Assembly (NCBI RefSeq): GCF_963676685.1
Contig: NC_092349.1
Span: 80,724,001-80,788,000 of the forward strand
DNA length: 64,000 bases
Reading direction: 5' to 3'
Source: Mytilus edulis
Taxonomy: Eukaryota
Part shown: positions 1,024 through 33,258 of the stretch, one piece after another
How positions within the stretch are numbered: position 1 is the stretch's first letter
Layout: each line of letters begins with the position of its first letter
Made by a program: the position numbers and the translations under genes
The notes under the pieces: model-generated
Told to the model about the DNA's origin: nothing
Databases searched by the model: none
What the model saw: the letters and a program-made list of their open reading frames with translations, nothing else

Positions 1024-1050
1024 AACTTTTACTTTCACTTTCAGTTTTCC
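1024..1050 (-). promoter_or_regulatory. ISRE/IRF-binding element-like motif
   Basis: Minus strand reads GGAAAACTGAAAGTGAAAGTAAAAGTT, i.e. tandem GAAA(N2)GAAA cores. A homologous cassette follows several paralogs. Confidence 0.6.
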
Positions 1051-1806
1051 CAAATCTAATGAATATCGTAAACCGGGACGCAGATGTAGGTGAAATAAAA
1101 TTTTGCAACTGTAATCATGGGCTCTTACAAAGTTTTTCTTCCTCTTTTCTATTATTTACCACTCGAGTAGTTAATTAGATGTCAAAAAATGGTAAAAAAA
1201 TTGTATTCTAACAATACGTTGGTTCGATACCGATTTAAATTTGACAATGTTGAAATTGGCTCCGAAACCAGTCTGCTTTAAATAAAAGTAGGAAAATAGA
1301 TAATTGTGAAAACATGTACTTCAGAATCTGTCAGCTTAGGCATTCTTACAAAAACGTACCAATCGAGTGTAGTTGACACTTTAAAATACAGTCACACATT
1401 ACAAACTGTAAATATGTATATTATTCAAGATATTAACTAAGTCTCTGATTTTGTTATAGAGAGCGAATTTTAGAATTTTTTTGAATTATTATAAAATAAT
1501 CTTGATTTTACATTATTCACTGTATCTATAAGTATCTAGTAATAAAAAAGTTATACATTTTGAAGATCGAATTTATGTTTATTTATAATAAACCTTATTA
1601 TGATTCGATATCGCAGTGTAGCATTATCTTTTTTGGTCTTTGCATGCATCCGTTCACTTATTGTTCCTAATTTAGCTGTTTTGTTAAGATATACTCACTT
1701 AAAGGTGTGTTCACATCTATTTGCACATGTTCTTTGTGATTTGTACTTCCAAAAATATAAACCTGATTTGACGGTTTCCCTAGCACAGAACTATTATAGG
1801 GGTAAT

Positions 1807-2498
1807 ATGATGTTTTGCAGTACGTTCATGAAAGAGACAGGCGATTTAAAATGCAACCGCTGAATGTTGGTAGTTTTTATTCTCGTTTAAAAGTGTCCGG
1901 AGCAGACGAGTTTGACTATAGCGTTGTGTTAGATACAGGACCACTTCTTGCTTGGACTACTGGAACGCCGGCTTATTATGGATATACTGGAAACCAAGAA
2001 GTGGTTTGCAAATCTATTCCACTGCCGTCACGTCCAATAGGAAAATGCCTTATAGAGGTTGTAGGACTGACACAAAGATGGAATAATGAAAATTTAAAAA
2101 AAGGACCGGCTTGTTTGACAATAAGTGATCACATAATACCAATTAAAGTAAAGAGGTGGTTTAAATCTCTCGTCAGAGAAACTGTTAACCTACCACACAC
2201 TCTTCAACATGTAAATGCAAACAGGTTATCCAAGTCACCTGCTGCTACTTTGAGTATCAACCGTCCTGACATCACAGGAGAAATAAGTGTTGATCTTGTC
2301 CCTCTTATTGAATCACATGTTCCATTTAACCAAGAGATTGGTTGGCCTAGAGCAGGAGCCAGGTGGCCTCCTCGAACTAAGATTGTCGAGATAAAAAGCG
2401 GGGTCAATGTGCTGGAGAATAAGGATAGAGACGTTCTTGACCAGGTTGTACAGAACATTTTCAAGTTTTTGAAAAATCCCGAACATTATCTAATTTAG
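1807..2498 (+). pseudogene. cGLR copy, 5'-truncated, with an in-frame internal deletion
   Basis: Homology begins at ...LQYVHERD (first ~33 codons absent). GSFY...DEFD and SVDL are present. KIVEIK is fused directly to SGVNVLENK, so the EGIH...YFHT segment (~115 aa) is missing. Confidence 0.85.
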
Positions 2499-2800
2499 AA
2501 TATGTTGTAAATCTTTGAATAAATTGAATTAGCATAATATGATATTTGCATTGTCATCTTTATCGAGCACTACTTCGGAGTAAATATAACAATTATATCT
2601 TGATAATGTCTACTAAGTATTTTTTCTTGTGATGTTCTAACTGAACAACATATACTTTGGCGCGAAATCTGTATAATTCACCCGAAACTCTCTTTTGAAA
2701 ACTTATGTAGATATTTTTGAAGTATTTTGAATATATATGATATATTTGTTATTGAACATGTTAAAAACAAATTCAGTAACACAAGAAAATGCGTATCGAT

Positions 2801-2852
2801 TTACTTTCACTTTCACTTACAGTTTTCATACATCTGATGAAAAGTGAAAGTG
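2801..2852. promoter_or_regulatory. Bidirectional ISRE-like cassette
   Basis: TTACTTTCACTTTCACTT...ATCTGATGAAAAGTGAAAGTG: IRF cores on both strands, ~300 bp after the stop codon. Confidence 0.6.
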
Positions 2853-3185
2853 CAATGAACAATATGAAAAGATCGTACCATTTATCCATTCACTTACAAA
2901 TGCACTTTAAAGTTTAATTAACTGAAGGCATTATTGCTAGAACAGAATCAGAAAGAATATGAAACACTTTATTTCAAATAAATGGTGCCACAAAAGGCAA
3001 CATGAAATTATAACAACACACAAACAAGTAAACAAAAACAAATGAACAATACTGATACAAAGAATATCTTGAATTATCTATGAATGACACATATCGAATA
3101 CCTAAAACGCTTACCGGTAAATGTTTTTAATAGATTTAATATAAATGTGTAATAAAATCATTAAATTAATTTGTTCTATGTATAA

Positions 3186-3648
3186 ACCTCTTATTGAAGT
3201 ATATGTTTCATTAACCAACGAAGGAATACATATTGTTGCTAAAGATCCGTTTTATTGGTCATTGTCATCTGTCATGAGTGAAAAGATTTCACGAGATGGC
3301 ATTGACTCCAATGGAACATGCCGTCAAAAAAGTCAACGGATAATGAAAAAACTACGAGAAAGTTGGTGTCCAAAAGGAACTAACAAGTAATTACCTCGTA
3401 ACATCTAAAAAAGATTCTCTTCTGGGAATGTGAAAATCGGCCATCTGATACAGAATTGACTAATAGACAGCTTTCTGTAAGAATTGAGTCTGTGTTACTT
3501 ACTCATACAACATATCTAGCGTAGCAACCTGCCTGTCTATTTTCATACAGGAGTTAATTTGCTGTAGAATAAGGATAGAGACGTTCTTGACCAGGTTGTG
3601 CTGAACAGTTTTAGGTTTTAAAAAAATTCTGACCATTACTTACTTAAA
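3186..3648 (+). pseudogene. cGLR C-terminal fragment (degenerate)
   Basis: PLIE...EGIHIVAKDPFYWSLS...RIMKKLRESWCPKGT, then frameshifts and stops through ILFWECENRPSD...GVNLL. The N-terminal half is absent. Confidence 0.85.
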
Positions 3649-4124
3649 AATTTATCGTGAATAAATGATTCTTTTTCAATTGTCATATGTTATTTCAATT
3701 GCCTGTTTATCTAGCTCTAGCAAAAAAAACGAGGATCTCAGTGTTAAAGTTAAACTTTCGAAGGATTGAATTTTATTTTGGTTGGTTTTGCCTCAACATG
3801 GGCAAACAATGTTAATCTACACCTGATTCACTCAAAATATTCCTCTAATCAAAATGAAATGAAACAGACAGAACTAAAAATACACAAAAAAGTTTTCTGA
3901 AATTTGGAATACCTTATTTCCTGATATATGTATAAAGTGTAGATTCAGTAAATTTTGCGATAATTTGGCTTTTGATTCGTTTTGGCTTTCACATACAGTT
4001 TTACTTTCATTTCAAGTTTTCTAAAATCTAGACGAAACTTTCAATATTTTCTTTAGTTGCTGTAAACATCTGTTATATATTTTATTCCTTGTCTTTATTC
4101 ACAGCAGCCGTAAATATTGTTCGC

Positions 4125-5240
4125 TTATTTTGTTACGGTCTGACTAAAGTTTGTAGAATTATTCGTATTTTTTTTTTATTATTCTTCCTTTTCTTTTTCT
4201 TTTTCTTCCGCCACTTTAAAAATGAACTTGTCCGCAGCGTTTCTCAAACACTGCTTGTCAGATTTACTTAGAATTTCATAGAATGTTAGACTAATATATC
4301 TAGGTGAGCCATCAATCTTTCGTTTGTGCATTGGGGTCTATTAAGGGGTATTTTAGGGGACAGAAAGAGAGAAGGGGTTTACCAAAGAACCATATGGTTT
4401 TTTTTCTAAAATTTTCAAATGAATATAACTTGAAAACTTTAATTGATTAACACACATAGTCCTCAGCAATGATCAAAGGACAATTAAACAAATCACATGA
4501 AACAAAAGGGGTATCCCTGGGGGGTAATCCCCCACCCCCTTAAATTTGAAAATCTGCTATTAGCTTGTAAACGATCCAAATCCCCACCCCTTAACCCTAT
4601 ATATTCTTGAATGGGACCAAAGAACAAATTAAATGATAAAAAAGGGAAGTCCATTTGAGTCACCCCACCCTGTTCAATTTGAGAATGTGCTATTATCTTG
4701 TAAACGGTCCAGATCCCCACCCATAAACCATATATATTCTTGTAAGGGACAATAAAACAAATCAAATGAAATTAAAAGGAAGTCCCTGGGGGTCACTCCC
4801 ACCCCATTCAATTTAAGAATGTGCTATTATCTTGTTACCGGTCCAGATCCCCACCCCTAAACCATATATATTCTTGTTGGGGACAATAAAACAAATAAAA
4901 TGATGATGAAAGAGAAGTCCCTAGGGTGTCACTCCACCCCGTCTTGTTTGAAAACTTGTAAACAGTCCATATCCCCACCCCTAAACCATAATATATATTC
5001 TTGTATGGAAAAATAAAACTCAGGAAAGGAAATATAGGGAGAGTAAAAGGGGTTACCCCCACACCGTTCAATTTGAGAATGTGCTATTATCTTATAAACG
5101 GTCAAGATCCCACCCCTAAACCATATATATTCTTGTATGGGACAATTAAACAAATCAAATGAATACTGGGACCATAAGAATGGTGAGTTATGGGAGCTTT
5201 AATTGGGAGACTTCGTAACAGCATCCTGTTACAATTACTT
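4125..5240 (+). mobile_element. Non-autonomous Helentron/HINE-like element with internal tandem repeats
   Basis: T/C-rich simple repeat near the 5' end, ~5 tandem units of ~130 bp (GTCCAGATCCCCACCCCTAAACCATATATATTCTTG...) at ~4490-5165, and a 3' hairpin GTAACAG-CATC-CTGTTAC at ~5215-5232. The family assignment rests on architecture only. Confidence 0.55.
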
Positions 5241-8200
5241 CTTTTTTTCATCTGATTTTTAGCGAGAAAATTTATTTTCGCTTATTTAACAAAATTGTGT
5301 GCGACATGTTGAACATTTCCGCTTTCATATGTTCTCTTTTTATCAAATTTTATACTGTCTGATTGCAACTTATCTGGGACCTTTGGCAAAAAACTCTCAT
5401 ACAGTACAATAGTGTGTGCATATGTAAAGCAAAATTATATCCGGGTGAAATTTGATCCGGAGAAAAATATTTCCCTGGGATATTTTTTCCTTTGTCGTGA
5501 AATTCTATCTGGGTAGTTAACTTAATGAATAGTTATTAGAAAAAACTTAACCTTTACAAATACTATGAAATAAAAATAGTGTATATGAATAAAAGCTAAA
5601 TTGTTAAAAAAAAATTGTAGAATAATGGGAAATAATTTCACAAATTATCATTGAAAACATTTCCTGAAATATTCAAGTAAATATCATTCTTTTAAAAAGA
5701 AAAGTATCGTGAAACATAAGAAAGAAAACCAGAAGTAATTTCAAAGATCGTAATTGTGAAATAATATCATGATTAAATAAGGTAAGTGAAATACATGTAA
5801 AAGTGAGTTGTTTTCAGGTCTCAGTACAAATATGAATTAAAAAGTAAAGGTAGAATTATAGTTGCATTACTACTGTTAACAGTAATGGAAGAATTTGAGT
5901 ATGATGATATTTTTAACTATATATAAATTGATTTTTTTTCTGGGGACAAAGATGTAGTTGTTGATTATCAGATAAATAATAGCATAACAATATATATTGG
6001 AACAAAAGCAATTTCAACAGCTGGATAGTATTTATCTGTAAAATGTTATCTGTCTTATTAAATCATGTTGTAAGTCATCTTTTTATATAATTGAATTTAT
6101 TAAAAATAAGATTCAATGAAAATTTTCACCATGAAATAGATTCAGGAGTATATTATATAAATATCTTTAAAATATAAATTGATTTTAAAATATAAATTGC
6201 TCATAATTACCTCCCTTTGATTGATAAATTATGCAAATTTGTTCTACCTTTGTGAAACATTTATAATTATGGTCAGGTATATATTGATTGCGAGTAACTT
6301 GCATAGTAGTTAATGGGATTCTATTTCACAAGGTTCTTGGAGATATGGTACGGCAGATATATACCGGTACATACTATCCGCATAACACAGATAGATTTTC
6401 ACTCCTCTGGAAAAATATTACCTGTGAAATACCATGTCTGGAAAAAAATTACTGTCACAAATTATCCCAAGGATAAAATATCACAGAGGAAGAAATAAAC
6501 CGTTACACATACACGTGTTGTTGAAATATTTAGTCCCGTTCAGATTCAACCGTTTTTATAGGAGTCATATGATTTTGAACATTTGTTTTAGTATTGCAAA
6601 AAATACACATTGTTAATGCAAGACAATTGTATATAAAGGTATCATATGTGGTAGTATTTGTCATTATGGTTTGTTGACTTTATTAAAAATATCAAATTTA
6701 ATCCTGGTATCTATGATAAGTTGAGATAGATATATCACTGTTTTGATTCGAATATATTTTAAGAATTGAAAAAGTCAACTGAAACCATTTCACTGCTATT
6801 GTCAGTCGTCTTGTGTTGTTGACTTTATTGTAGTGCTATTTTTAGTCGATTATTTTTCCGAATAATTGAAATAATCCATTTAGACCATCTCACATAAAGA
6901 TAGCATACGTCAGTGGTGGGTATGTTTACCATGATGTGCTGTTGAGAATATCATATCGTTGAGAAAATTCTCGATCATCAACATGCATATTCAGAAAACC
7001 CTGATAATATCGTGATCGACCAATGAAATCCATCTGACGGAGAGCATTTCAGCAGACGTTTTAAGTGAATACACGAAGAAGGTTGGAGTGATGACGACTC
7101 TTATAGTCTTTGGAATGCCAAAGTAGATGAAAAGCATTTGATAGCTTCAAAAATAAATTTACCAAAACGAGTAAACAATATTAAACGAGGAGGCAATAAA
7201 TACGATGCATGAAATACAGTTTACAAAGTCTTTATTCCCATATCTAGAAAAGATATCGCATCGAGATATCTTTGATCATTTATTGTTTTATAATAGATTG
7301 AAGATAAGTGATATCAATTTAAAAAAAATAGAATAAATCATTCAAACGTTTAAAGATTATGACATTGAGGAGTGTTCAGTGCATAAGAGAATTGTTTTTT
7401 CAATTGTTTATTAGATGCATATTACCCATCTGACATTAATAAAGACATAGGCTAAATGAAATCTAAGAGACGAACGAACTCTTGTAGAATCGACCTAAAA
7501 TGTCTATTAAAATATAGTATGCTTTGTTATTCTTAAAAAAAGGACTAAGAGAATGTCTTGAATAGAAAATATAATGCTTTTATAGTTAATACAGTTCTAT
7601 TTAAATGGAATGAATTACATTGATGGTTTAAGAAAGATAACATAAAGGGCGCGTAGCAGTTTTCCTGTCGGTAAAAAGACCAAATTAAAGTACTTAGAAC
7701 AATCTATTTGTCAAACGTATTAATTTTTTCAAAAGTACTACTGCATGCATGTCAAAGGAGATCACATCATATCTTCATCTTGTTCAATGTGAATCGTCTA
7801 AAATAAATATATAAACCAGACTGCTTCAAGGCGTTAGAAATACGCCGGTTGGTTGATTCTACAGTTATTATTTATCAATGAAAATTCTTCTGAAGACGTT
7901 TGACCGTCCCTTCTATTTCTGTTCTTTTTCATTATTTCAAAAATGCATTTCACTTTGGACTTTAACATTATCAGCAATATAATAAAGTTAAATTATGTCG
8001 AAAAGGGGTAGATATATTACATCAAAACTTAACTTCATACAACATCCATTTAACATAGGTTTAATAATGGCTGAAATTTCGTAACTGTATACTTATCTTT
8101 TATTGTACACATCATTGACATATAACCCAGGTATCTTACTTTATTTTCCAACCTTGAAAACTTGCCAATAACTATGACAAACACAAATTATATCGTTCCG

Positions 8201-9860: not shown

Positions 9861-10989
9861 ATGAATAACATCATGTTGAATAAATTTTATAAAGACGATG
9901 TGAAAATTACAAAACTAGAAATTAAGCACAATGCTGATTTTGTGATTCCTCTTGTCAATAGCATTTTGCAGAACGTTCATGAATTAGACGAGCGGTCTAA
10001 ATCACAACCATTACATGTTGGTAGTTACTACTCTCGTCTTAAAGTGTCTCGAGCAGACGAGTTTGACTATAGCGTAGTGTTGGATGTAGGATCATCTCTC
10101 TCTTGGATTCCCACAACGCCGGTTCATTATGGATATCATAGAAACAAAGAAGTGGATTGTACATCGATTCCACTGTCAACACCACCAGTAGGAAAATGCT
10201 TAACACAGATTCCAGAACAGATACAAAGCTGGAATAATAAAGGTTTAAATAACGGACCGGCATGTTTGTCAATTGATTATTATACCTATAAAAGTTAAAA
10301 GATGGTTTAAGCAACTCGTCATTAAAGCTATAGATCAACTCGGAATATGGGACATCGTCAAAGTGCAAGGATTACCCGAGTCTCCTGCAACTACTTTGAC
10401 GATTTGCCATTCCAAAATTGCTGGAGGAACAATTAGCGTAGATCTCACACCCATAATCGAAGGAAAGCTATCATTCAAACCAAGGTTTGGTTGGCCTAGG
10501 GCGGGGGCAAAATGGCCATCCGATACCAAGATTCAGGAGATAAAAGATGAAGGAATACATATTGTTGCCAAAGATCCATATTATTGGTCTTTATCATTCG
10601 TCGCATGTGAAAAGAAATTGATAGCTGGCATTGATTCAGATGGATCTTGTCGTAAAAAGAGTCAATGCATTATGAAAAAACTTCGAGAAATGTGGTGTCC
10701 GAAAGAAACAAAACAGGAACTTACTTCGTACCATCTTAAAAATATTCTTTTCTGGGAATGTGAAAATCATCCAGATAATAAAGAATGGAATAAAGATCAG
10801 CTTGCTGTAAGAATTGAGTCCATGTGTAATCTACTCATACAACAAATACGATGTGGCAACCTACCTCTATACTTCCATACAGGGGTCAATTTGTTTGAGA
10901 ATAAGGACAAAGACGTTCTTGGCCAGGTTGCGCACAATATTTTAAGGTTTGTGAGGGCGCCACATCATTACTTATATAAATACATGTAG
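9861..10989 (+). pseudogene. Full-length cGLR with a single frameshift
   Basis: ORFs 9861-10298 and 10273-10989 together give the whole protein. About 5 nt are missing at ~10275-10281 (GATTATT versus GATGATCACATC in paralogs). All catalytic motifs (VGSYY, DEFD, SVDL) are intact. Confidence 0.85.
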
Positions 10990-12233: not shown

Positions 12234-12344
12234 ATCCATATTATTGGTCTTTATCATTCGTCGCATGTGAAAAGAAATTGATAGCTGGCATCGATTCAGA
12301 TGGATCTTGTCGTAAAAAGAGTCAACGTATTATGAAAAAACTTC
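12234..12344 (+). pseudogene. 111-bp captured cGLR fragment
   Basis: Matches 10574-10684 with 3 mismatches (PYYWSLSFVACEKKLIAGIDSDGSCRKKSQRIMKKL). Confidence 0.9.
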
Positions 12345-19307: not shown

Positions 19308-19630
19308 TTAAATCAATGTGGTTTTTCTGTATGGCAAAGTATTGTAAATATGATAAGAAAGTAGTATGATTGTCAATGAGACAACTTTACAGGCCTCAGA
19401 ACACAATTATTCTTTCCCTTTTTTTTTTTTTTATTAAAGTCAAGTTAAATTAAAAAATTTGCACCGCTACGTACATGAAATAAATTCAACTGCTTATAGA
19501 CCATTATTATTCTAATACAATATGCTTGTCCCAGAACAACCCATCAGTGCTTTTTCTTTTGAGAGCCCCATTAAAATGCCAATGGTAGGATTTGGTTCTT
19601 GAATAAATGACAAAGGCTAATTTCTACCCT

Positions 19631-19680
19631 ACTTTCATTTTGGCCAAATCACTTCTTTCACTTTCAACATTAACTTTTTT
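19631..19680 (-). promoter_or_regulatory. ISRE-like motif upstream of the 20397 copy
   Basis: CTTTCACTTTC (GAAAGTGAAAG on -) at 19655-19665 plus a nearby ACTTTCATTTT. Confidence 0.45.
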
Positions 19681-20396
19681 CCATATGTTTTACTTATTTC
19701 AATATATATGTAACTGAAAGGACACTTAAATAGTAAACATTTCAAAGATAACAGCAGACAGATTACCTAGGAAGAAATACCCCATATAATAATTAGGAAA
19801 TATTTTCCTAGACCACGAACAAAGGGAATTAATTGTTATCTTAGGCCTACACAAGAGATCAAATGACACATAAATTAACAATTATAGATTACCTTATACG
19901 GCTTTCGAAAATGATCAAAACTCATTTCACTAAGTCATCTATAAAAGGCCCCGAAATGATATCAAGTAATCAGATAAATGAGGCTATGAGTTTTTCATGT
20001 AATGTTAATGGAATAGGTAAGCGAAAAAAAGCTGTCAATGCCTGTATTAAAGGTTGCACTTTGACCTAGAATGGTTTACTTGTACAAATTGTGACTTGGA
20101 TTGAAAGCTGTTTCAATGACACTTATGCCACATCTTATTATATATATAAAATCAAATTACAGCAAATATCATCCTGGAACTAGTAATTGTCCATATGCAT
20201 GTTGTATGTATATAATCTAAACAACATTGGGGTCATATTGACCCGACTTATTTCTATATAAAAAATATATATGAAGAACACCTATTTCTATTTTTAATTT
20301 TATATTTTGCTCTACACATTATTATGATAACATATCATGAAAAACGAAGATAAAAAGCTTAAATTTCACAATTGTCATTATTGTTTACATGTCGAA

Positions 20397-21509
20397 ATGG
20401 ATATAAATACAATGTTTAATAATTTTTATGTCAAAATGTCAAGAAACGAAACAAGCCAGAACGTTCATTTTGTGACGCCTCTTGTGCAAGACATTTTGCA
20501 GTACGTTCATGAATGGGACAAACGGTTTCAAATACAGACACTAAATGTTGGGAGTTATTATTTAAAGTGTCTCGAGCAGACGAATTTGATTATAGTGTAG
20601 TCTTAGAAGTTGGATCATCTCTAGATTGATGTATTGGAACACCATCTTATTAAGGATATAATGGTAGCAACGAAGTTGTTCGTTCATTGATTCCACTTCC
20701 GACAGCACCAACAGGACAATGCGTTACAGAGGTTCTAGGACTGACAAAAAAGATGGAATAATGAAGGTTTAAATGAAGGACCGGCTTGTTTGACACTTGA
20801 TAATCACATTATACCTATACGAGTGAAAAGAAGGTTCAAATCACTCGTCAGTGAAGCTATTAACCGACCAGACACTCGTCAGTATGTTGACGCAAGACGA
20901 TCATCCGAGTCACCTGCTACTACACTTATAACTTGCCATCCTAACATTGTCGGAGATCAAGTTAGTGTAAATCTTGCACCTCTTATAAAATCACATGCTT
21001 CTTTCAAATCAGAGTTTGAATGGCCTCGCCATGGGGGCCAGATGACCATCCCGTACAAAGATTGAAGAGATAAAAGCTGAAGGAATACATTTAGTTGCTA
21101 AACATCCATGTTACTGGTCTTTGTCATTTGTCATGTGCGAAAAGATATTGATAAATTGCATTGACTCGAATGGAACTTGCCGTAAAAAAAGTCAACGAAT
21201 AATGAAGAAACTTAGAGAAATGTGGTGTCCAAAAGGAACAAAACAAGAATTAACTTCATATCATCTTAAAAATATTCTTTTCTGGGAATGTGAAAGTCAT
21301 CCATTTGATTCAGAATGGGATAATGACAAGCTTTCTGAAAGAATTTCTTCAATGTGTTACCGGATCATAGAACACATACGATGTGGCAACCTGCCTCTCT
21401 ATTTTCATGAATGAGTCAATTTGTTGAAACATAGGGGCAAACACGATCTTCCCAAGGTTGAACAAAACATTTTGAGGTTTTGAATACTCCCGAACATTAT
21501 CTAATTTAG
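20397..21509 (+). pseudogene. cGLR pseudogene (multiple stops and frameshifts, third catalytic Asp->Asn)
   Basis: MDINTMFNNFY start. Homology is split across ORFs 20337, 20790 and 21121, with internal TGA/TAA codons. SVNLAP replaces SVDL. It ends PEHYLI*. Confidence 0.9.
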
Positions 21510-21970
21510 AAAATGATGTAAATTTTTAATATAATTTATATTGACAGATTTAAAAAAATGCTACACTAGGTTATTCTGTTTTATTCTCATTTTCAAATAA
21601 CCAATTTTTGTAAAATAAATGTATAAACATAAATTCAATCGATTTCTTAATTGTCTGAAAATACATAATTAAAATTATCATGATATGATATTTGTATGTC
21701 TGTTTTATCGAGCACTGCTTCGAGGTAAATATTTAAATTAAATCTTGATAATGTCTTGTTATGTATATGAAAAGTAAAAACATTAAACCATCATGGCACG
21801 ACTTCTGTATAAATTACCTGACATCATATCTGTCAGATTCTCGTCAGAAACAAAATGTACAACAATGGTCCACACAATACTTTGATTATACAAGTACATG
21901 GTTTATTCGTTGTTAAACATGTCAAAGACATTTCGGTCATACCAAAAAAAGCCAAAAAACTATTGAATAT

Positions 21971-22012
21971 CTTTCACTTTCACTTACAGTATTCATAAAT
22001 CTGATGAAAAGT
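21971..22012. promoter_or_regulatory. ISRE-like cassette
   Basis: CTTTCACTTTCACTTACAGTATTCATAAATCTGATGAAAAGT, homologous to 2801-2852. Confidence 0.55.
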
Positions 22013-22029
22013 TACATTGTGAATCGCTT

Positions 22030-22800
22030 GTACAATGGAATCCAATCAGAAAAGTTTGGGTTGTTAATGGAAAGAACATCATCAATATATCTGAAAGTGA
22101 AATTAAATTACCTGGCTTGTTTGATCTTCTTGTTTTTGACAAGTGCACACAGTTCGTTCCAATAGGAATGTGTACAATTTGTTGAAAAAGTCTACCTTTA
22201 ATTTCCACAAATATGTTGTCAATAGGAAACTCCAGCATACTGATCCCTTTTTGATCTATGTAGCATGTTTTACCTTTGTGTTCACTATTAACAAAATATG
22301 CCGTATTGTATCCCAAAGTAATAAATTTATAGCGTATGCTACCGTTTTATGTTGAAAAGCATTGTGGATTATTTTTATACGATTTTTAATTTCACATGGT
22401 GGTATGCAGGGTTGAAAAATCAAAAGTTTTGATAAAACCAGTTTCAGAAAAAGATCGAGATTAAAAATTATCTAGAAATTCTTAAGACTTTTTTTAGAAT
22501 CAACATATGGTTAATACCACTACTCGAGTAAACAGTTTCACAGTTTTTCTGAAGACCCTCTTTCATTGCGGATAGACATTTGATCAATCAAATGGGCAGT
22601 TCTTCAGAATAATGAGTCTTTAATTAACAGTGACAACATAGATCTGTCATCAGCAACGTTTTTTCTCAAATAACTAAGACAAGATAGGGAAAAATAAAGA
22701 AGACAAGGATGCTAATTCCATTTTTCTACAAGCATCGTTGTTTTGCTCATAAAACAATTTTGAAATCCAAAATAAATCTTTCTTGAACTTTGTTTGCAAT
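22030..22800 (-). pseudogene. Penelope-like reverse transcriptase relic
   Basis: The minus-strand ORF contains MLEFPIDNIFVEIKGRLFQQIVHIPIGTNC (PLE RT motif). The flanks are degenerate and the boundaries approximate. Confidence 0.7.
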
Positions 22801-24372: not shown

Positions 24373-24382
24373 GAAAATCCCC
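24373..24382 (-). promoter_or_regulatory. kappaB-like site
   Basis: GGGGATTTTC on -, ~120 bp upstream of ATG 24503. Equivalent sites precede the 39426 and 46996 copies. Confidence 0.4.
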
Positions 24383-24502
24383 TTTCCTATTTACACTATC
24401 GGAAATTTCTCGAAAGTGATAACATATTATATATATCTATATGTAAGAAGGCAGAAAAAGGAATTGATTTTTCATAATTGCAAGTAACGTTTACCTGTAA
24501 AC

Positions 24503-25628
24503 ATGGATAATGCAATGTTAAATAGATTTTATGAAGACAATGTGAAAATGACAAAAGACGAAACAAGCCAGAACATTGAAATTGTTATTCCTCTCGTCAA
24601 TGATATTTTGCAGTACGTTCACGAAAGAGACGGGCGGTTTAAAAAAACAACCATTGAATGTTGGTAGTTACTATTCCCGTCTAAAAGTGTCTCGAGCGGA
24701 CGAGTTTGACTATAGCGTAGTATTAGATATAGGATCATCTCTCGTTTGGGGTACCGTCACACCGGCTTATTATGGATATAACGAAAACAAAGAAGTGGTT
24801 CGTAAATCGATCTCACTACCTTTAGCTCCAACTGGAAAATCCTTTACACAGATTACAGGACTGACACAAAAATGGGATAATGAACGTTTAAATGAAGGAC
24901 CGGCTTGTTTGACAATTGGTGACCACCTTATACCTATAAAAGTAAAAAGGAGGTTTAAGACACTAGTTAGTGAAGCTGTGAATAGACCAAGAATACGCCA
25001 ACATGTCGACGCGCAAAGATTATCCGAATCACCTGCCGCTACTTTGACAATTCGTCATCCCAAAATTGCAGGAGAAACAATAAGCGTTGATCTCGCACCT
25101 CTTATTGAGGGACATCTTCCATTCAAACCAGAGTTTGGCTGGCCTAGACAAGGAGCCAGATGGCCGTCCTGGATGAAGATTGAGGAAATCAAAGCCGAAG
25201 GAATACACGAAGTTGCTAAAGATCCATTTCACTGGTCACTGTCATTTGTCATGTGCGAAAACAAATTGGTGGATGGAATGGATTCGAATGGAACTTGCCG
25301 TAAAAAGAGTCAACGGATAATGAAAAAACTTCGAGAAATGTGGTGTCCGAAAGGAACAAAACAAGAAATAACTTCGTACCATCTTAAAAACATTTTATTT
25401 TGGGAAGGTGAAAATCACCCAAACGATAGTGAATGGACTAATGACCAGCTTTCTGTGAGAATAGCGTCAATGTGTTACCTGCTCATAGGATACATACAGC
25501 GTGGCAACCTGCCTTTGTATTTCCATACAGGGGTCAATTTATTGATGAATAAGGACAGAGACGTTCTTACCCAGGTTGAACAGAACATATTCAGGTTTTT
25601 GAATAATCCCGAGCAATATCTAATTTAG
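24503..25628 (+). CDS. cGLR, full length (374 aa) apart from a +1 frameshift in an A7 run; intact gene with a sequence error, or a young pseudogene
   Basis: ATG 24503 MDNAMLNRFYEDNVKM...DGRFKK. The A7 at 24641-24647 sits where paralogs have 6 nt. The frame then continues open to TAG at 25628 with all motifs. Confidence 0.8.
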
Positions 25629-26066: not shown

Positions 26067-26115
26067 AACTTTCACTTTCATTTACAGTTTTCCTAAATCT
26101 GATGAAAGGTCAAGG
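26067..26115. promoter_or_regulatory. ISRE-like cassette
   Basis: AACTTTCACTTTCATTTACAGTTTTCCTAAATCTGATGAAAGG, homologous to 2801-2852. Confidence 0.55.
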
Positions 26116-26134
26116 TACAAGGAACAATATGATA

Positions 26135-26500
26135 AAAGCAAAATCACACAAATACTGAACTCCGCGGAAAATTCAAAAATAAAAGTCCATAATCAAATAG
26201 CAAATCTAAAGCTCAAACACATCAATCTATTGGACAACATCCAGCATATTCCTGACTTGGTATAGGCATTTTCTTATGTGGAAAATGGTGGATTAAATTT
26301 GGTTTCAAAGCTAGGTAAACCTCTCACTTGAATGACAGTTGCATAAAATTCCATTATATGACAACGATGTGTGGACAAAACAAAGAGACATAATCGGTAA
26401 AAATGTCAAAAATCGATTTACAGCAGACAACATTGTGTTAATATCGTAATCAATATAAAAAAAATATATAAACAAACATTTGCCATGACACAATAACCAC
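26135..26500 (+). repeat. Interspersed repeat family (copies ~11240-11530, 23775-24060; inverted ~15140-15345, 35730-35858, 52270-52415)
   Basis: Shared AAAGTCC..ATCAAATGGCAAAATCAAAAGCTCAAACACATCAAA...CCTGACTTGGTACAGGCATTTT core. Confidence 0.7.
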
Positions 26501-26699
26501 ATGATAACACAAAGAATCAGTTGTACAATTCATCCCGTCACTTACAAATGCATAAAAACTTGATTAGCTATGGGCATTGCTAGTACAGAATCGAAAAGAA
26601 TGTGAAATACTTTATTCTTAATTAATGAAACCACAAGATGCAATATGAGTTATAACAACAAACAAACTATTAGCTACTACTATTTATTTACGTATTATT

Positions 26700-27000
26700 G
26701 ATTTTAGCGAGAGAAATGTATGTATTACTGAAAAAAAATTCACCAGGGTTTTCGATATCACAAACTAGTCAAACCTTTACTAAATTTTATCATTGGTACA
26801 CGAACATCATTTGTAAATATAACTCAACATGCAGAAATCTTATACGTTCAGGTATCTCACATCCAATTGTTTATGGTAATATTCTATATAAAGCACAAAA
26901 ATGTCAGTATTCACCAGCTAACAAAACCTTTAAACAGACTTATTAAGAAGGCATATAGTTACGATACTGTTGTCAGGTCATTAAAGATTGCATTCACTTA
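26700..27000 (+). pseudogene. Penelope-like element C-terminal relic
   Basis: CAGGGTTTTCGATATCACAAACTAGTCAAA..TTTACTAAATTTTATCAT encodes QGFRYHKLVK.FTKFYH, resembling the post-RT region of PLEs. It is frameshifted. Confidence 0.5.
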
Positions 27001-28350
27001 TAGGGTCTTTGTAGCGGAATCAAACACATTTTTTCTAAAACCAGTTGTTGGCATGACACTAGTACTGGTTATGTTCTTCTCATATATTTTATGATAGTAT
27101 AATACTAAACCCCTAACGGGAGGGATTGTGCTTAATATTCACATGATGAAGACATAATATATCAATCAGTTTATTTGAGGTCTGGAGCTGGCATGTCAGT
27201 AAATGCTAGTAGTCCTTTGTCAATTTATGTATTATTGTCATTTTGTTTAATTTCTTATTCTGACATCGGACTCGGACTTCTCTTAAACTAAGTTTTACTG
27301 TCCTTATTATTGTGTGTTTTTTCTACTTTTGCTATAGGTATAGGGGAAAGGGTTGAGATTTAAAAAAAAACATGCTGTTACCCGCTGCATTTTCGCGCCT
27401 TTCCCAAGTCAGGAGCCTCTGGCTTTTGTTAGTCTTGTATAATTTTTAGTTTTAGTTTCTTGTGTATAATTCGGAGTTTAGTATGACGTCCAGTATCACT
27501 TAACTAGAATACATATTTGTTAATTGAATTTGTAAGGATTAACCGTATTGACCCTAGTGCTTCATGTAATATCCCTATTTTTCTGATATCAAATTAAAAT
27601 TGAGAATGGAGATGGGGAATGTGTAAAAGAAACAACAACCCGACCCCAGAGCAGACAACAGCCGAAGGCCAACAATGGGTCTTCAATGCAGCGAGAACTT
27701 CCGCACCCGGAGGTGTCCTTCGGCTTGTCCCTTCATAAATATGTATTCTGGTTCAGTGATTATGAACGAGATACTAAACTCCGAATAATTGTCTGGTAAA
27801 TAATGTATTGTCATGAGTTTCAACGATGAGGCTGTATATTAAATTTTTGAAAGAGACATTTGGTCACAAGATAAGATTGCCAACGCACAAATAAAGGCAT
27901 TGATAGAAACCCTATCTATCAGAAATACATCAGTTCAGAGGTAGTCCGTGTCCGATTTCATTTTTCATATTAAAATTAGATAACGTCAGAAATATTTTCA
28001 GTTCTTTGATAATCGGATTGCAGATTATTTTCTGTAACTAATATAGAGCCTTCTAATAGAAAGGCGTGTATTTTTTATATTTATCCAACTTTCAATATAT
28101 CTTAACTAATTGAGACATATTATATATCAAATATGATAATTTATCTATTAAAAATGTTAAGTAATTTATTTTATTAGTTATCTTATATAGGTTATGACAT
28201 ATCTTATATAGTTAAAATATATCTTGGTTATTTGTTTTGTAATCAATTAGGCGATTGATTTATGTCTTGGCCTTTTATTGCCAACCATACGATGTCGGCC
28301 TTTCTCATTGAATAAGATCGAACGGTCGTATATAATTGTTAAAATTTCCT

Positions 28351-28548
28351 ATATTTCTGGGAATGCAAATATCATCCATCAGAGTGGACTATTGACCAGT
28401 TTTCTGTTAGAGTTGATTCAATTCTTTATCTGATCATACAAAACATACAGCGAGGCAACCTTCTTACAGGGGGCAATTTGCTAGAGAATAATTGAAAATG
28501 TTCTAGACCGGGTTGAACAAACAATGTTAATCCGTTTTACAACCCTAG
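28351..28548 (+). pseudogene. cGLR C-terminal relic
   Basis: TTCTGGGAATGC...GAGTGGACTATTGACCAG...CATACAGCGAGGCAACCTT...GGCAATTTGCTAGAGAATAA (FWEC..EWT.DQ..IQRGNL..NLLEN), degenerate. Confidence 0.8.
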
Positions 28549-29405
28549 ATCAGAACTTTATTTATTGTCTGTTTTGTCTAGCACTACTTGAGAATAAGTA
28601 TTATAGACTTAAGACTTGAAAATACAATTCTCTTTAATACCAGAAACGGTACCAAATGGATGAAACTTCGAAAAATTGCATGCCGTTGCTGTTTTAAAAA
28701 GTCTCAGTTAGAACGATACTTCAACATGTTCAAATGAAATCCTCATAGATACCAGTATTGAAATTTTCGCAAGTCACGTTTAGCAGGGATATCTAACTGG
28801 ATATTTCTACTAGAGACTGCAGGGTATCAGTGCTGAATTCGAATTTTCGAACTATGAATTAACCTGACATCAAATTTGTTCCATCTCCGTTCTTCTGTTC
28901 AGTCTGTTTGGTTTTCTTTTGCACCGAAAAACATTTATTAACTATACATGAGTCACTCAAATTCACATTTTAGAAAAATTCAAATGGAAAAGCCAGAACA
29001 AAAGATACACACAAAACAATACACTTATTCTGAAATTTGAAATATCTTTTTTCATATTATCTGTATATGATATGTGATAATATTTGTTTGAATTTCACAA
29101 ACAGTTGACATTTAACTTTCAAGAACTGTTTTGTAAAATCACATAAACAGTTTCTTAATTTTCCTACCAAATGTTCTAAGTTGGCTAAATAATGAAACAT
29201 TTCATCTTCTACATTTCGTATATCAGTCGGACATAGTTTGAATTATGCTTATGAAAAGCAGTAGTCAGATGGGGTTGCACCAGAATTCAAACACAAATAA
29301 ATTGGACTATAAACTGTTGGCTTGGATTTACCTTGTACTCCTTGCCGTCAAATCCGATTGAAAATCATTTCACCGATACATTGAAAATACTAGAAAGTAA
29401 ACAAT

Positions 29406-29660
29406 GCTTGTCTGAGTATTAATGCCGGTATTTTTTCCTAAGTATAAAAAAGAGAAATGCAAATCATTCATCAGTGAGGCTATTAATCGGCCTCGAATAC
29501 ATCGATTTGCTGATATAAAAGGCTACACTGAGAATTATTTACCATCCAGAAAACAAGGTTGGACAGCAAGCATTGATTAAGCTCCATAAATTGAGGCACA
29601 TTTCCTACCCAGACACGAGTTCGGTTAACCAAGATCAGGAGCCAAATGTCATTCTCAAAC
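29406..29660 (+). pseudogene. cGLR central relic
   Basis: AAATCATTCATCAGTGAGGCTATTAATCGGCCTCGAATA...GAGTTCGGTTAACCAAGATCAGGAGCCAAATG (KS..SEAINRPRI...EFG*PRSGAK), degenerate. Confidence 0.7.
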
Positions 29661-31604
29661 TGATATATGCTAAGCTCTGACTTCTTGTTCAGTATTGGCT
29701 ATTGTTTTATTCATTTTTAAATTGATCCGCTCTTCAACATTTGTATTTTAATTTGGATATTTAAAAAAATATTTTGGCCCCGAGCACCATAGAAGAGACA
29801 TTAATAGTTGAAATGCGGATGTGATGCATTGTAGATACTGCCGTTGGCCGTACGATGATATAACAGTTTTAAAAACAGTAATTAAACCATCTAAAATGTA
29901 CTGTATTTAATTTGTGAAATGAATTAGAAAAATGTTCAAACAAAGATTATCAGGTCGAAACGGAAAAAAAACACTATCGACTCTGTGTAGGGTTTTTGGG
30001 GATTGAATCAACGGTGCTTGGTGTAATTTTCAGGCAAGACAAGCTTTGAATATCACATGTATAAACCATATATTTGACTAGCCATGATATTTTCAAGCTC
30101 ATGAAGGTACCACGGTCAAAATGAGTCTCTGCATTTATATGAAGTTTTCGTTTATTTATATACATAAATTATGCCGTTAGTTTTCTCGTTTGAATTGTTT
30201 TAAAATGTTATTTCAGGGCCTTTTATAGCTGACTATGCGGTATGTGCTTTGTTCATTATTGACGGCCCTTCGGTTACCTATAGTTGTTAATTTTTGTGTC
30301 ATTTTGTCTCTTGTGGATAGTTGTCTCATTGGCAATCTTAGATTTTCTAGATTCTTCAAAATAACAGAACTATTGTCATTTTTGTTATTATCGATTTTAT
30401 TAAAATTTTCCATCTTATTCTTAAATTTTTTCACATGTATGTTTATATTTTATAGTTGTTATGTAACATTGTCTTTGTAGGGAAAAGGATTGTCAAGTCT
30501 TTGATTAATAAAAAATGTAAGCTTTAAGAATTAAAATAACTGAAGTTTGTATTTTCTAAATTCGGTTGTAACTGCAAAAATGTACTAGAACCTGTAATCA
30601 AAATAATACTAAATTTAAATGTTTTCTTTTTTTCGTAAGGAAAACAACATCAATTTTAACAAAGAAAATATAAAGATATATAACTAACATCAACAAGCTG
30701 TGCATCATTTATATGCTTCCTAATGTTTATTTACTTTCGTATTGTAAATACATTTTACATCCTGACAAAGTGATTAAATCAACACAGAGTTTGATGAAAA
30801 TCAAACTGCATGATCAATAGTATGAAGGTATTCATGTAAAAGGTATGTAAGAAAACTTTAAACAACACACACTTTTTTTAAGTAGTTGGAAGACTGTCAA
30901 AGATTTAAAAAAAAAATGAAGCAAACAAGGAATGAAGATGGGATGAGACAATATAGGGATCATAACAGGCAGTATATCTTGCTCGATTTACATGTGCCGG
31001 TATTTGTTCATATTTTACAGTGAGACAAAATGTGATTTACTCCCAACACTTAGTTTCCATGCTGTAATCATATTCGAAAAAGTTATAAAGTTTAAATGTT
31101 AGGTTCTGTATTAATAAATCACTTGAATTGCAGAAAATGAGCTTATCTTAACCCTAATAAAAGTACAACAACCGCCAAAGTAATTGTCAGTGCAATGATC
31201 AAATGAACGTAATGAAAAAATGAAGTTATAATAATTGCATGGTATGTCGTCAATTCGGCTTCTCTGAAATTAACAAATATAGGTCACCTTAGAAGGCTTT
31301 CTGCAATGATCAAAATCCATAACCCTAAGTCAGCTATAAAAGGCCCCGAAATGACACCAAGTAATATGATAAATGAGGCTATGAGTTTTTCATTTAATTT
31401 CAAAGGAAAAGGAAAGCGAAAAAACCTGTCAATGCCCGTGTTGAAGGCCGTACTTTGACCTATAGTGGTTTACTTTTACACTCTGTGGCTTGGATGCCAG
31501 TCATATAACATCTTATTATATATATGATATCAAATTACATCAAATATCATCCTGGAACTAGAATTTGTCCATAAACATGTTGTATATAATCAGAACAACA
31601 TTGG

Positions 31605-31617
31605 GGTCATCTTGACC
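31605..31617. promoter_or_regulatory. GGTCAnnnTGACC palindrome (ERE/IR3-like) upstream of a TA-rich TATA-like tract
   Basis: GGTCA-TCT-TGACC here, GGTCA-TAT-TGACC at 20231-20243, GTTCA-TTT-TGACC at 36698-36710. Confidence 0.35.
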
Positions 31618-31775
31618 CGACTTATTTCTCTCTCTATATATATATATATATATATTTGAAGAACACCTATTCCTATTTTTAATTTTGGATTTTGCTCTAC
31701 ACACTATTATGATAACATATCATGTAAAAATGCAGATAAAAAGCTCACAATTATCATTATCGTTTACCTGTCAAA

Positions 31776-32903
31776 ATGGATATTAATAAAATGTTAAATA
31801 ATTTTTATGAAGGCAACGTAAAAATGTCAAGAAACGAAACAAGACAGAACGTTAATGTTGTGATGCCTCTTGTGAATGACATTTTGCGGTACGTTCATGA
31901 AAAGGACAAACGGTTTCAAGTACAGCCATTAAATGTCGGGAGTTACTATTCCCACCTTAAAGTGTCTCGAGCTGACGAATTTGATTATAGTGTAGTCTTA
32001 GATGTTGGATCATCTCTGGATTGGGGTATTGGGACGCCATCTTATTATGGATATAATGGAAGCAACGAATTGGTTCTTTCATGGATTCCACTGCCATCAC
32101 CACCCCCAGGAAAATGCCTTATAGAGGTTGGAGGACTGACACAAAGATGGAATAATGAAGGTTTAAATGAAGGACCGGCTTGTTTGACAATTGATGATCA
32201 CATCATACCTATACGAGTTAAAAGAAGGTTTAAAGTACTCGTTAGTGAAGCTGTGAATCGACCACACATATATCAGTTTGTCGACGCAAGGCGATTATCC
32301 GAGTCACCTGCTACTACACTGATAATAAGCCATCCTAACATTGTAGGAGATACAATAAGTGTAGATCTTACACCTCTCATTAAATCACATGCTTCATTTC
32401 AACCAGAGTTTGGGTGGCCTAGATCAGGAGCCATATGGCCATCTTGTATAAAGATTCAAGAGATAATAGCTGAAGGAATCCACGGAGTTGCCAAAGATCC
32501 ATTGTACTGGTCTTTGTCATTTGTCATGTGCGAAAAGAAATTGCTAGATGGCATTGACTCGAATGGAACTTGTCGTAAAAAAAGTCAACGGATAATGAAA
32601 AAAATACGTGAAAGTTGGTGTCCAAAAGGAACTAAACAAGTAATTACTTCGTACCATCTACAAAATATTCTTTTCTGGGAATGTGAAAGTCGCCCATCTG
32701 ATGAAGAATGGACAAATGAACAGCTTTCTATAAGAATTGAGTCCATGTGTCACTTGCTCATACAAAATATTCAGCGTGGCAACCTGCCACTGTATTTCCA
32801 TACAGGAGTCAATTTGCTGGAGAATAAGGACAGGGACGTACTTGACAAGGTTGTACAGAACATTTACCGGTTTTTGAATAATCCCGAACATTATCTAATT
32901 TAA
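31776..32903 (+). CDS. cGAS-like receptor (cGLR; Mab-21 domain cyclic dinucleotide synthase-like), intact, 375 aa
   Basis: Uninterrupted ORF with the hG[S]x(9-13)EhD motif (VGSYYSHLKVSRADEFD), third acidic residue SVDL, WSLSF..CEK, SYHL and LPLYF..GVNLL, all matching cGAS/Mab-21 landmarks. No zinc-ribbon insertion. Confidence 0.95.
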   Translation: MDINKMLNNFYEGNVKMSRNETRQNVNVVMPLVNDILRYVHEKDKRFQVQPLNVGSYYSHLKVSRADEFDYSVVLDVGSSLDWGIGTPSYYGYNGSNELVLSWIPLPSPPPGKCLIEVGGLTQRWNNEGLNEGPACLTIDDHIIPIRVKRRFKVLVSEAVNRPHIYQFVDARRLSESPATTLIISHPNIVGDTISVDLTPLIKSHASFQPEFGWPRSGAIWPSCIKIQEIIAEGIHGVAKDPLYWSLSFVMCEKKLLDGIDSNGTCRKKSQRIMKKIRESWCPKGTKQVITSYHLQNILFWECESRPSDEEWTNEQLSIRIESMCHLLIQNIQRGNLPLYFHTGVNLLENKDRDVLDKVVQNIYRFLNNPEHYLI

Positions 32904-33204
32904 ATTATGTTTTCAATCTTTTAGATCATTTGAATCAGCAGAATGTGATGTTTGTATTGTCTGTTTCACCAAGGAATACTTCGGAGTGAACTTTAAAATT
33001 AAATCTTGATAATGTTTTCTTTTCTAGTAATATCATAACTGGACAAAACATTAAACTGTGGCGCGACAACTGTATAATTCACCTGGAATAATCGCTGAAA
33101 ATTTTCTTTAGGAAACTGATGTAGACTAAAAATTCTAACATTTGTAATATACATGATATATCCGTTAGAAAACCTTCAGTCATACAATAAAATGATTATC
33201 TATT

Positions 33205-33258
33205 AACTTTCACTTTCATTAACAGTTTTCATAAATCTGATGAAAAGTAAAAGTAAAC
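33205..33258. promoter_or_regulatory. ISRE-like cassette
   Basis: AACTTTCACTTTCATTAACAGTTTTCATAAATCTGATGAAAAGTAAAAGT, ~300 bp after the stop codon. Confidence 0.55.

What the first reader, a model, noticed from the sequence alone, without database searches (positions are those of the whole stretch)
1024..33258. A conserved ISRE-like cassette 300-500 bp downstream of most + strand cGLR copies
Seen: ACTTTCACTTTCA...CAGTTTTC..AAATCTGATGAAAAGT recurs at 1024, 2801, ~3986, 21971, 26067 and 33205. The IRF cores look better preserved than the surrounding AT-rich flank, and at 2801 they lie on both strands. Known: GAAANNGAAA is the IRF-binding ISRE. Inference: each duplication unit carries its own IRF switch, acting as a 3' enhancer, a promoter for a non-coding first exon of the next gene, or an antisense promoter. 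That would make a cGLR->STING->IRF->cGLR feed-forward loop in an animal without vertebrate-type interferon.
Basis: partly seen in the sequence, partly recalled or inferred. Interest (0 to 1): 0.75.

Follow-up and report, generated by a model that had tools for sequence, protein, structure and literature searches.

The report
Conserved IRF/Blimp-1 site behind cGLR genes
In a mussel's tandem cluster of cGAS-like immune sensor genes, a 39-base stretch just behind six of the copies is much better conserved than the DNA around it and matches IRF and Blimp-1 binding sites, so it likely acts as a switch that turns these sensor genes up or down during infection.

Summary
The cassette is real. The window is a Mytilus tandem cluster of single-exon Mab-21/cGLR genes. 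A 39-bp block lies 303-479 bp behind the stop of five window copies plus one upstream copy. It is degenerate at 3986, absent behind four other + strand copies, and found nowhere else in the genome. It is 91% identical between copies against 75% for the flanks (permutation p 0.001-0.008). Behind copy 1 it is the only alignable part of the 3' flank. Five of six full copies hold a perfect 12-bp IRF element. Corrections: recurrence is by duplication; the non-IRF half is equally conserved; the sites are the GTGAAAGT form that Blimp-1/PRDM1 also binds. RNA contigs of four studies over copy 7 start near the ATG with no spliced leader and stop just before the cassette, a weak hint against a non-coding first exon. 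The genes have proximal GATA/kB-like promoters. Best reading: a 3' IRF/Blimp-1 enhancer module (0.5). A 3'-end processing element is the main rival. The STING-IRF feed-forward loop is untested, is known in kind (mammalian cGAS ISREs, fly cGLR3), and oyster and anemone knockdowns do not support it.

The parts
1..546 (+). cGLR copy 1, 3' part (ORF starts 590 bp upstream of the window; open frame)
1025..1063 (.). cassette 1: hexamer array with two overlapping 12-bp IRF elements on the minus strand; the only alignable island in this flank
1809..2498 (+). cGLR copy 2, broken (5' end missing, internal deletion)
2803..2851 (.). cassette 2: IRF-E/Blimp-1 sites on both strands (minus 2803-2814, plus 2840-2851)
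3220..3660 (+). cGLR copy 3, C-terminal remnant with stops
3984..4028 (.). degenerate cassette (single half-sites only)
9861..10989 (+). cGLR copy 4, frameshifted; no cassette behind it
20397..21509 (+). cGLR copy 5, broken (stops, frameshifts)
21970..22008 (.). cassette 5 (GAAANNGAAA on minus strand), followed by a repeat
24373..24422 (.). proximal promoter motifs of copy 6: two kB-like sites and a GATA site (motifs recalled, conservation seen in copies u0, 6, 9, 10)
24503..25628 (+). cGLR copy 6, one frameshift in this assembly; RNA contigs over it
26068..26106 (.). cassette 6 (12-bp IRF-E on minus strand)
28349..29140 (+). cGLR C-terminal remnant and a decayed cassette-homologous flank without IRF sites
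31710..31743 (+). proximal promoter motifs of copy 7: GATA site and an A-rich TATA/GATA-like box about 35 bp before the first RNA-covered base
31776..32903 (+). cGLR copy 7, intact 375-aa single-exon ORF, acidic triad present, covered by RNA contigs of four studies
33186..33191 (+). AATAAA, likely poly(A) signal of copy 7, 20 bp before the cassette
33206..33244 (.). cassette 7 (12-bp IRF-E on minus strand)
36834..37961 (+). cGLR copy 8, one TAG; no cassette
39426..40525 (+). cGLR copy 9, broken; kB-like site at 39320; no cassette
46996..48110 (+). cGLR copy 10, frameshifted; kB-like site at 46886; no cassette seen (157 N follow the gene)
50140..51267 (-). divergent cGLR copy 11, one TAG; no cassette
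53909..55030 (-). divergent cGLR copy 12, open frame; no cassette

Best explanation
The cassette is a conserved 39-bp block, copied with the 3' flank of tandem mussel cGLR genes, that likely works as a DNA enhancer/silencer bound by IRF activators and probably by the competing repressor Blimp-1. Shown: the block is conserved above the flanks, is unique to this cluster, and holds tandem ACTTTC hexamers that match IRF elements. Weakly shown: it lies at or just past the 3' end of the copy-7 RNA, and the genes start at proximal promoters with GATA and, in some copies, kB-like sites. Inferred: on dsRNA or viral challenge an IRF1/2- or IRF8-like protein would bind the hexamers and boost these promoters from 1.5 kb or more away, with NF-kB acting at the promoter; Blimp-1 would hold the genes down at rest or after induction. 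Whether the IRF is activated through STING, RLR-MAVS or a secreted factor is not determined.
For: Cassette 356/390 identical vs 2027/2719 and 748/997 in the flanks; four-fold sites between those copies 59-76%. The best 39-bp window is reached by 19 of 20000 column shuffles and 156 of 20000 block shuffles. A profile of five whole flanks, built without copy 1, finds copy 1 only at the cassette (E 1.5e-5); pairwise BLAST agrees. 5 of 6 full copies hold a 12-bp IRF-E against 1 of 4053 control windows. Copy u0 has lost the minus-strand pair but keeps a perfect plus-strand site, and copy 1 has its good pair shifted by one hexamer, as binding-site turnover would look. The u0 plus-strand site shares 18 letters with the human BTN3A3 BLIMP1 EMSA probe, and copies 2 and 5 hold the in vivo BLIMP1 word AAGTGAAAGTGAA (PMC2938208). 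The same 13-mer lies about 330 bp before the viperin ATG in this genome. Oyster IRFs activate ISRE reporters (PMC5557890). The genome encodes IRF domains at four places and STING-like domains.
Against: No binding, reporter or induction data. The conserved block includes 14 bp that no IRF site fully explains. It sits where a poly(A) downstream element would sit: A(A/T)TAAA lies 20-53 bp before it in 3 of 6 copies. The copies are related and may be homogenised by gene conversion, which the shuffles do not model. No ortholog from another genus could be fetched. 20 other Mab-21 loci show 1 IRF-E in 200 kb, none near a gene end, and the three closest relatives on contig C10 show none. The excess near viperin/IRF/RLR genes (6 vs 0 in 200 kb) mostly fell away on inspection, and the viperin site weakly resembles a repeat family (63% over 131 bp). 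Intact copy 12 lacks the cassette.
Confidence: 0.5

Rival explanations
1. RNA 3'-end element: the U/C-rich block is the cleavage site and downstream element of the poly(A) signal, or a distal 3'-UTR element, and the IRF match is incidental.
For: Copy-7 RNA contigs stop at 33086, 33111, 33121 and 33172; AATAAA is at 33186 and the cassette at 33206. A(A/T)TAAA lies 20-53 bp upstream in 3 of 6 copies against 718 of 6079 background windows. The block is always on the sense strand at a similar distance from the stop.
Against: The poly(A) hexamer is not conserved between copies while the block is. 91% identity over 39 bp is more than downstream elements usually show (own knowledge). It does not explain the plus-strand GAAAAGTGAAAGT of copies u0 and 2. 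No conserved fold (z +1.7 to -2.2, different pairings) and no credible Rfam match.
Confidence: 0.17
2. Blimp-1/PRDM1-only silencer: the sites serve a repressor that sets tissue or developmental expression, with no IRF induction.
For: The doubled sites are nearly all of the G form needed for BLIMP1 binding (PMC2938208 section 20); 4 of 6 copies match a recalled Blimp-1 consensus.
Against: Copy 1 has one C-form (IRF-only) site and no match to that consensus, and u0 has no match either. The neighbours are immune sensors. A Blimp-1 gene was not looked for in this genome.
Confidence: 0.12
3. No function: a decayed hexamer microsatellite in a duplicated flank, kept alike by chance or by local gene conversion.
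For: All copies descend from one flank. ACTTTC runs arise by slippage elsewhere in the genome. The block was picked for its conservation, and the block-shuffle p is only 0.008. It has decayed or gone in copy 3, at -853, near 29100 and in four other copies.
Against: It survives as an island behind copy 1, where about 500 bp on each side no longer align. The non-repetitive 14-bp half is 94% conserved. Conversion of 40 bp without flanking homology is unlikely (inference).
Confidence: 0.12
4. IRF-driven promoter for a non-coding first exon of the next cGLR, or for an antisense RNA.
For: The orientation equals that of the viperin upstream site. A decayed homolog lies 260 bp upstream of the copy-1 ATG, so in compact units the block is also 5' of the next gene.
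Against: No contig of four runs lies on 33222-33475 and none has a loose end before the copy-7 ATG; three contigs begin within 31769-31771. GT donors after the block are weak and unconserved. The copy nearest a downstream ATG is the one without IRF sites.
Confidence: 0.07
5. 3' splice acceptor (pyrimidine tract plus CAG) of an intron in the 3' UTR.
For: 5 of 6 full copies read pyrimidines then CAG, some with a branch-like TAAC before.
Against: Intact copy u0 has CAA there; no joint to the block and no contig beyond it.
Confidence: 0.02

Closest known systems
ISRE pair in the mammalian cGAS promoter (Ma et al. 2015, as cited in PMC5934468; passages read)
   Same: IRF-type elements attached to a cGAS-family sensor gene, giving positive feedback
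   Different: There the sites are in the 5' promoter and respond to interferon; here they lie 300-480 bp behind the stop, in a mollusc, and are untested
Overlapping IRF-E/BLIMP1 sites such as PSMB8/10, BTN3A3, SP110 (PMC2938208; passages and section 20 read)
   Same: Same AAGTGAAAGT words; 18 letters identical between the u0 plus-strand site and the BTN3A3 probe; such sites are reported as better conserved
   Different: Human promoter sites with ChIP/EMSA support; here 3' of the gene, up to four hexamers plus an inverted site, no binding data
Drosophila cGLR3 (CG7194) induced by 2'3'-cGAMP (PMC10917227; passages read)
   Same: A cGLR gene turned on by its own pathway in an invertebrate
   Different: The fly pathway runs through Relish/NF-kB; no IRF element is involved
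Oyster cGAS/STING-TBK1-IRF axis (PMC8218723; PMC5557890; passages read)
   Same: Bivalve IRFs activate ISRE reporters; CgcGAS is induced by poly(I:C)
   Different: No cis-element was mapped at CgcGAS in the passages seen, and STING RNAi did not change its expression
cGAS-like receptors (PMC9980059, passages; PDB 8gjy 'cGAS-like receptor 1')
   Same: Full-length match (E 2e-45), GS..E-F-D..V-D-L acidic triad, helix bundle, expansion in bivalves
   Different: V instead of Q/T before GS and a longer spacer to the third acid than the published motif; ligand and product untested

Membership tests
IRF-E/ISRE cis-element | Two or more GAAA cores in AANNGAAA / GAAANNGAAA spacing | tested here: met
   5 of 6 full copies hold GAAANNGAAA; 5 of 6 a 12-bp IRF-E (pattern recalled); every full copy holds one or the other; background 45 and 1 of 4053 windows. 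AANNGAAA and GTGAAA as in PMC7819612.
IRF-E/ISRE cis-element | Conserved above neutral flank | tested here: met
   91% vs 75%; shuffles 19 and 156 of 20000; island behind copy 1. Paralogs of one genome only.
IRF-E/ISRE cis-element | Constraint specific to the IRF cores | tested here: not met
   Hexamers 112/120, adjacent 14-bp block 132/140.
IRF-E/ISRE cis-element | Bound by an IRF and needed for induction | not testable with these tools
   Needs EMSA/ChIP and reporters; IRF domains are present in the genome.
IRF-E/ISRE cis-element | Same motif at other antiviral genes of the organism | tested here: inconclusive
   6 vs 0 per 200 kb, but only the viperin site is clearly promoter-like and it weakly resembles a repeat.
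Blimp-1/PRDM1 site | GTGAAAGT core with G, not C, at the two critical positions | tested here: met
   All six full copies hold GTGAAA; 4 of 6 match the recalled long consensus; criterion from PMC2938208.
Blimp-1/PRDM1 site | Blimp-1 ortholog present and binding | not tested
   No search for PRDM1 was made in this genome.
Poly(A) downstream element | U-rich tract 10-50 nt after a poly(A) hexamer at the transcript end | tested here: inconclusive
   Met for copy 7; hexamer present in 3 of 6 copies; contigs cannot fix an end.
Promoter of a spliced leader exon | RNA from the block joined to the next cGLR exon | tested here: inconclusive
   No joint, loose end or cover for copy 7 in 4 of 4 runs, but depth is 7-10 and contigs cannot show absence.
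Dispersed repeat / transposon | Copies elsewhere in the genome | tested here: not met
   6 matches, all in this cluster; the DNA search hit only the cluster; no likeness to two repeat families that carry the 13-mer beyond the hexamers.
cGLR (Mab-21 family nucleotidyltransferase) | Mab-21 NTase and C-terminal domains | tested here: met
   PF03281 and PF20266 over cut-off; best PDB match a cGAS-like receptor 1.
cGLR (Mab-21 family nucleotidyltransferase) | h[QT]GS-X8-20-[DE]h[DE]h-X50-90-h[DE]h motif | tested here: inconclusive
   GS and all three acids present and invariant in the alignment, but V precedes GS and the last spacer is over 100 aa; 8gjy deviates in the same two ways.
cGLR (Mab-21 family nucleotidyltransferase) | Nucleic-acid-triggered cyclic dinucleotide synthesis that activates STING | not testable with these tools
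   Needs biochemistry.

The most novel reading that the evidence does not exclude
The block is an ancient IRF/Blimp-1 toggle that closes a cGLR to STING to IRF to cGLR loop in a mollusc without type I interferon. Each duplication adds one more 3' enhancer, so the cassettes left behind broken copies 2 and 5 (1 and 2 changes from the majority in 39 bp) keep boosting intact neighbours: the array grows enhancer dose as well as sensor number.
Probability: 0.12. Interest if true: 0.7.

Novelty: new member of a known kind. Interest (0 to 1): 0.38.

Why it matters
Bivalves carry very large cGLR families and an interferon-like response whose cis-regulatory code is hardly mapped. This gives a short, cluster-specific, footprinted element with natural variants (minus-strand only, plus-strand only, both, decayed, absent) that can go straight into reporter and binding assays. 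It would show whether mussel cGLRs are direct IRF targets and whether IRF/Blimp-1 antagonism at shared sites exists outside deuterostomes. The feedback idea itself is not new in kind.

Tried and rejected
Genome-wide excess of the 13-mer as a sign of selection: 1420 matches against 47-629 for six doubled hexamers of the same letters, and 355 for the IRF-only form against 406 for its reverse. Rejected, because 10 of 20 sampled matches (chosen by hand from the first 100 listed, contig C1) fall in two dispersed repeat families. The tool's own control was void, as the pattern reads the same backwards. IRF-E excess near RLR and IRF genes: of the 6 hits I inspected 5. One is the viperin upstream site, one abuts a splice donor, one starts an exon, one lies 16 kb from an IRF domain and one probably lies inside an RLR gene; the sixth looks like a known local repeat by its printed context. 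Not counted as support beyond viperin. Cross-genus footprinting: two metagenome scans gave no locus; no related genomes are held. Conserved hairpin or known RNA: not found; a hammerhead reading of CTGATGA...GAAA was dropped by eye (no stem II). Stranded reads: two raw runs of a related organism gave depth 0-0.5 on the genes, and that 18.8-kb lay was swamped by repeats. Lack of RNA cover beyond 33172 is not proof of absence; no DNA run was laid as control. Pseudogene test: broken copies differ at 4-10% of otherwise invariant second codon positions, and cassettes 2 and 5 at 1-2 of 39 letters, too few to tell. Presence against intactness (3 of 3 intact + strand copies have it; 3 full of 8 broken) is too small to test. 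Earlier findings: three look-ups returned nothing.
Full report
Setting. The window lies on contig C6 of a 1.37-Gb genome; the closest named homologs are Mytilus 'mab-21-like 3' proteins, with scallop and brachiopod relatives further out. tblastn shows ten + strand and two minus-strand cGLR copies plus small remnants, and one more intact copy (u0) and a remnant just upstream. Open frames are u0, copy 1, copy 7 and copy 12; the rest have stops, frameshifts or deletions. Copy 7 has both Mab-21 domains, an invariant GS..EFD..VDL triad, and its best solved relative is a cGAS-like receptor 1 (8gjy, E 2e-45). It departs from the published cGLR motif (PMC9980059) in the residue before GS and in spacer length, as 8gjy does.

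Observation. A profile of the six reported sites finds seven matches with E at most 2e-9 in 184 kb: the six it was built from and a new one behind u0. Six are full 39-bp copies 303-479 bp behind a stop; the one at 3986 is degenerate. None lies behind copies 4, 8, 9, 10, 11 or 12 (157 N follow copy 10). A degenerate pattern with up to two mismatches has 6 matches in the whole genome, all in this cluster, and 0 for the reversed control. So it is not a dispersed repeat, and its recurrence is by duplication of the 3' flank.

Is it more conserved than the flank? I aligned the five alignable flanks (u0, 2, 5, 6, 7), leaving out repeat insertions in u0 and 6 and the repeat after cassette 5. Pairwise identity is 356/390 in the cassette, 2027/2719 upstream and 748/997 downstream; four-fold degenerate sites between these genes are 59-76%. 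Allowing for picking the best window, 19 of 20000 column shuffles and 156 of 20000 six-base block shuffles reach it; these ignore relatedness and gene conversion. The clearest sign is copy 1. Beyond about 40 bp after the stop, its flank aligns to those of u0, 2, 3, 5, 6 and 7 only at the cassette (76-88% over 41-50 bp), and a 594-position profile built without copy 1 finds only positions 313-359 there (E 1.5e-5).

Anatomy. The block is three ACTTTC-type hexamers, AGTTTTC, then ATAAATCTGATGAA, which in u0 and copy 2 runs into a plus-strand GAAAAGTGAAAGT. Five of six full copies have a 12-bp IRF-E (pattern recalled), against 1 of 4053 control windows; the sixth has GAAANNGAAA. u0 lost the minus-strand pair but keeps the plus-strand site; copy 1 has its pair shifted by one hexamer. 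The sites are the G form bound by both IRF1/2 and BLIMP1. The in vivo BLIMP1 word AAGTGAAAGTGAA is in copies 2 and 5, and the u0 plus-strand site shares 18 letters with the BTN3A3 probe (PMC2938208).

Where does RNA lie? On copy 7, contigs of four studies (two on record as RNA, two guessed) begin at 31769, 31771, 31781 and 31819, with no loose end before the ATG at 31776. They stop at 33172, 33111, 33121 and 33086; nothing lies on 31480-31747 or 33222-33475 (31 of 50 piece rows shown, loose-end table complete). AATAAA is at 33186. Depth is 7-10, contigs give no strand or true ends, and no DNA run was laid, so this is a weak hint: a single-exon RNA that starts close to the ATG and ends at about the cassette. 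The 5' flanks carry a conserved TGATAA and an A-rich box about 35 bp before the first covered base. Copies u0, 6, 9 and 10 also carry GGGGA(A/T/C)TTTC kB-like sites at -106 to -130 (motifs recalled). A decayed cassette homolog sits 260 bp before the copy-1 ATG but has no IRF site.

Is this how other antiviral genes look here? The genome has IRF domains at four places, STING-like domains, viperin and 14 RLR C-terminal domains. Twenty 10-kb stretches near these held 6 IRF-E against 0 in twenty arbitrary stretches, but only the site about 330 bp before the viperin ATG is clearly promoter-like, and it weakly resembles a repeat family. Twenty other Mab-21 loci have 1 IRF-E in 200 kb, none near a gene end; three closer relatives on C10 have none. 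The genome-wide excess of the 13-mer is at least half due to repeats. The element is thus specific to this cluster, and support from other genes is thin.

Mechanism and odds. Best (0.5): a 3' DNA module bound by IRF, probably with Blimp-1 competing, acting on proximal GATA/kB promoters. Conservation, uniqueness and motif content are shown; binding, induction and target are inferred. Rivals: 3'-end RNA element (0.17), Blimp-1-only silencer (0.12), neutral or converted microsatellite (0.12), promoter of a leader or antisense RNA (0.07), splice acceptor (0.02). The STING step of the proposed loop has no evidence here. Oyster IRFs do activate ISRE reporters (PMC5557890) and CgcGAS is induced by poly(I:C), but STING RNAi left it unchanged (PMC8218723). 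Single IRF knockdowns did not alter cGAMP-induced genes in Nematostella, with redundancy left open by the authors (PMC8713801).

Novelty. ISREs at a cGAS gene (PMC5934468) and pathway-induced cGLRs in flies (PMC10917227) are known, so the loop is not new in kind. I found no description of this element or cluster in searches; the library lacks most subscription journals on shellfish immunity. What I saw of papers: passages found by term for PMC9980059, PMC8218723, PMC5869526, PMC8713801, PMC13319465, PMC10917227, PMC5557890, PMC7819612 and PMC5934468; passages and section 20 for PMC2938208; the rest as search listings only. No supplements were read; the cGLR table of PMC9980059 may list these proteins. 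Verdict: a real, conserved, testable cis-element of a known kind in an unusual 3' position; interest 0.38.

Noticed in passing
window 24373-24422, 39320-39370, 46886-46895; L001 about 119 bp before the u0 ATG: Conserved proximal kB-like (GGGGA.TTTC) plus GATA module in copies u0, 6, 9, 10; copies 1, 5, 7, 8 keep GATA but lack the kB match, so two promoter types are mixed with different 3' flanks.
   Followed up: partly
L017 (G000:C12:8803284-8803295): Perfect GAAAGTGAAAGT about 330 bp before the viperin ATG; its surroundings align weakly (63% over 131 bp) to a dispersed repeat family that carries the same 13-mer, so it may be a repeat-derived IRF site.
   Followed up: partly
L078, L079, L082, L083; L081, L086, L088, L090, L092, L093; window 19437-19777: Two dispersed repeat families carry ACTTTCACTTTCA and make up 10 of 20 sampled genome-wide matches; one copy lies about 730 bp upstream of cGLR copy 5. 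They could seed IRF/Blimp-1 sites across the genome.
   Followed up: partly
window 24525-24902: RNA contigs of two studies each show one gap over the frameshifted part of copy 6, compatible with an open frame in other individuals.
   Followed up: no
window 21996-22346 (-): Short frame that looks like a reverse-transcriptase remnant of a Penelope-like element (recalled likeness, not searched), inserted right after cassette 5; it holds a further GAAAGTGAAA at 22093.
   Followed up: no
window 61505-62008 (+): PNMA/gag-like frame (PF14893, E 2.7e-6), probably an LTR-retrotransposon remnant.
   Followed up: no
L002-L006, from 20 kb upstream of the window, minus strand: Exons that look like a myosin XVIII gene (recalled likeness) head-to-head with the cluster; two C-form IRF elements lie at -19305 and -31689, the first about 1 kb from its apparent first coding exon.
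   Followed up: no
window 48486-48654: 75% copy of the 5' end and upstream flank of minus-strand copy 12, a remnant of a further minus-strand gene.
   Followed up: no
window 4478-5163 and 62981-63641: 133-bp (5 copies) and 21-bp (26 copies) tandem arrays.
   Followed up: no
L014 5491 (G000:C10, minus strand): kB-like GGGGATTTCC about 270 bp upstream of a C10 relative of these cGLRs, as in the kB-type copies.
   Followed up: no
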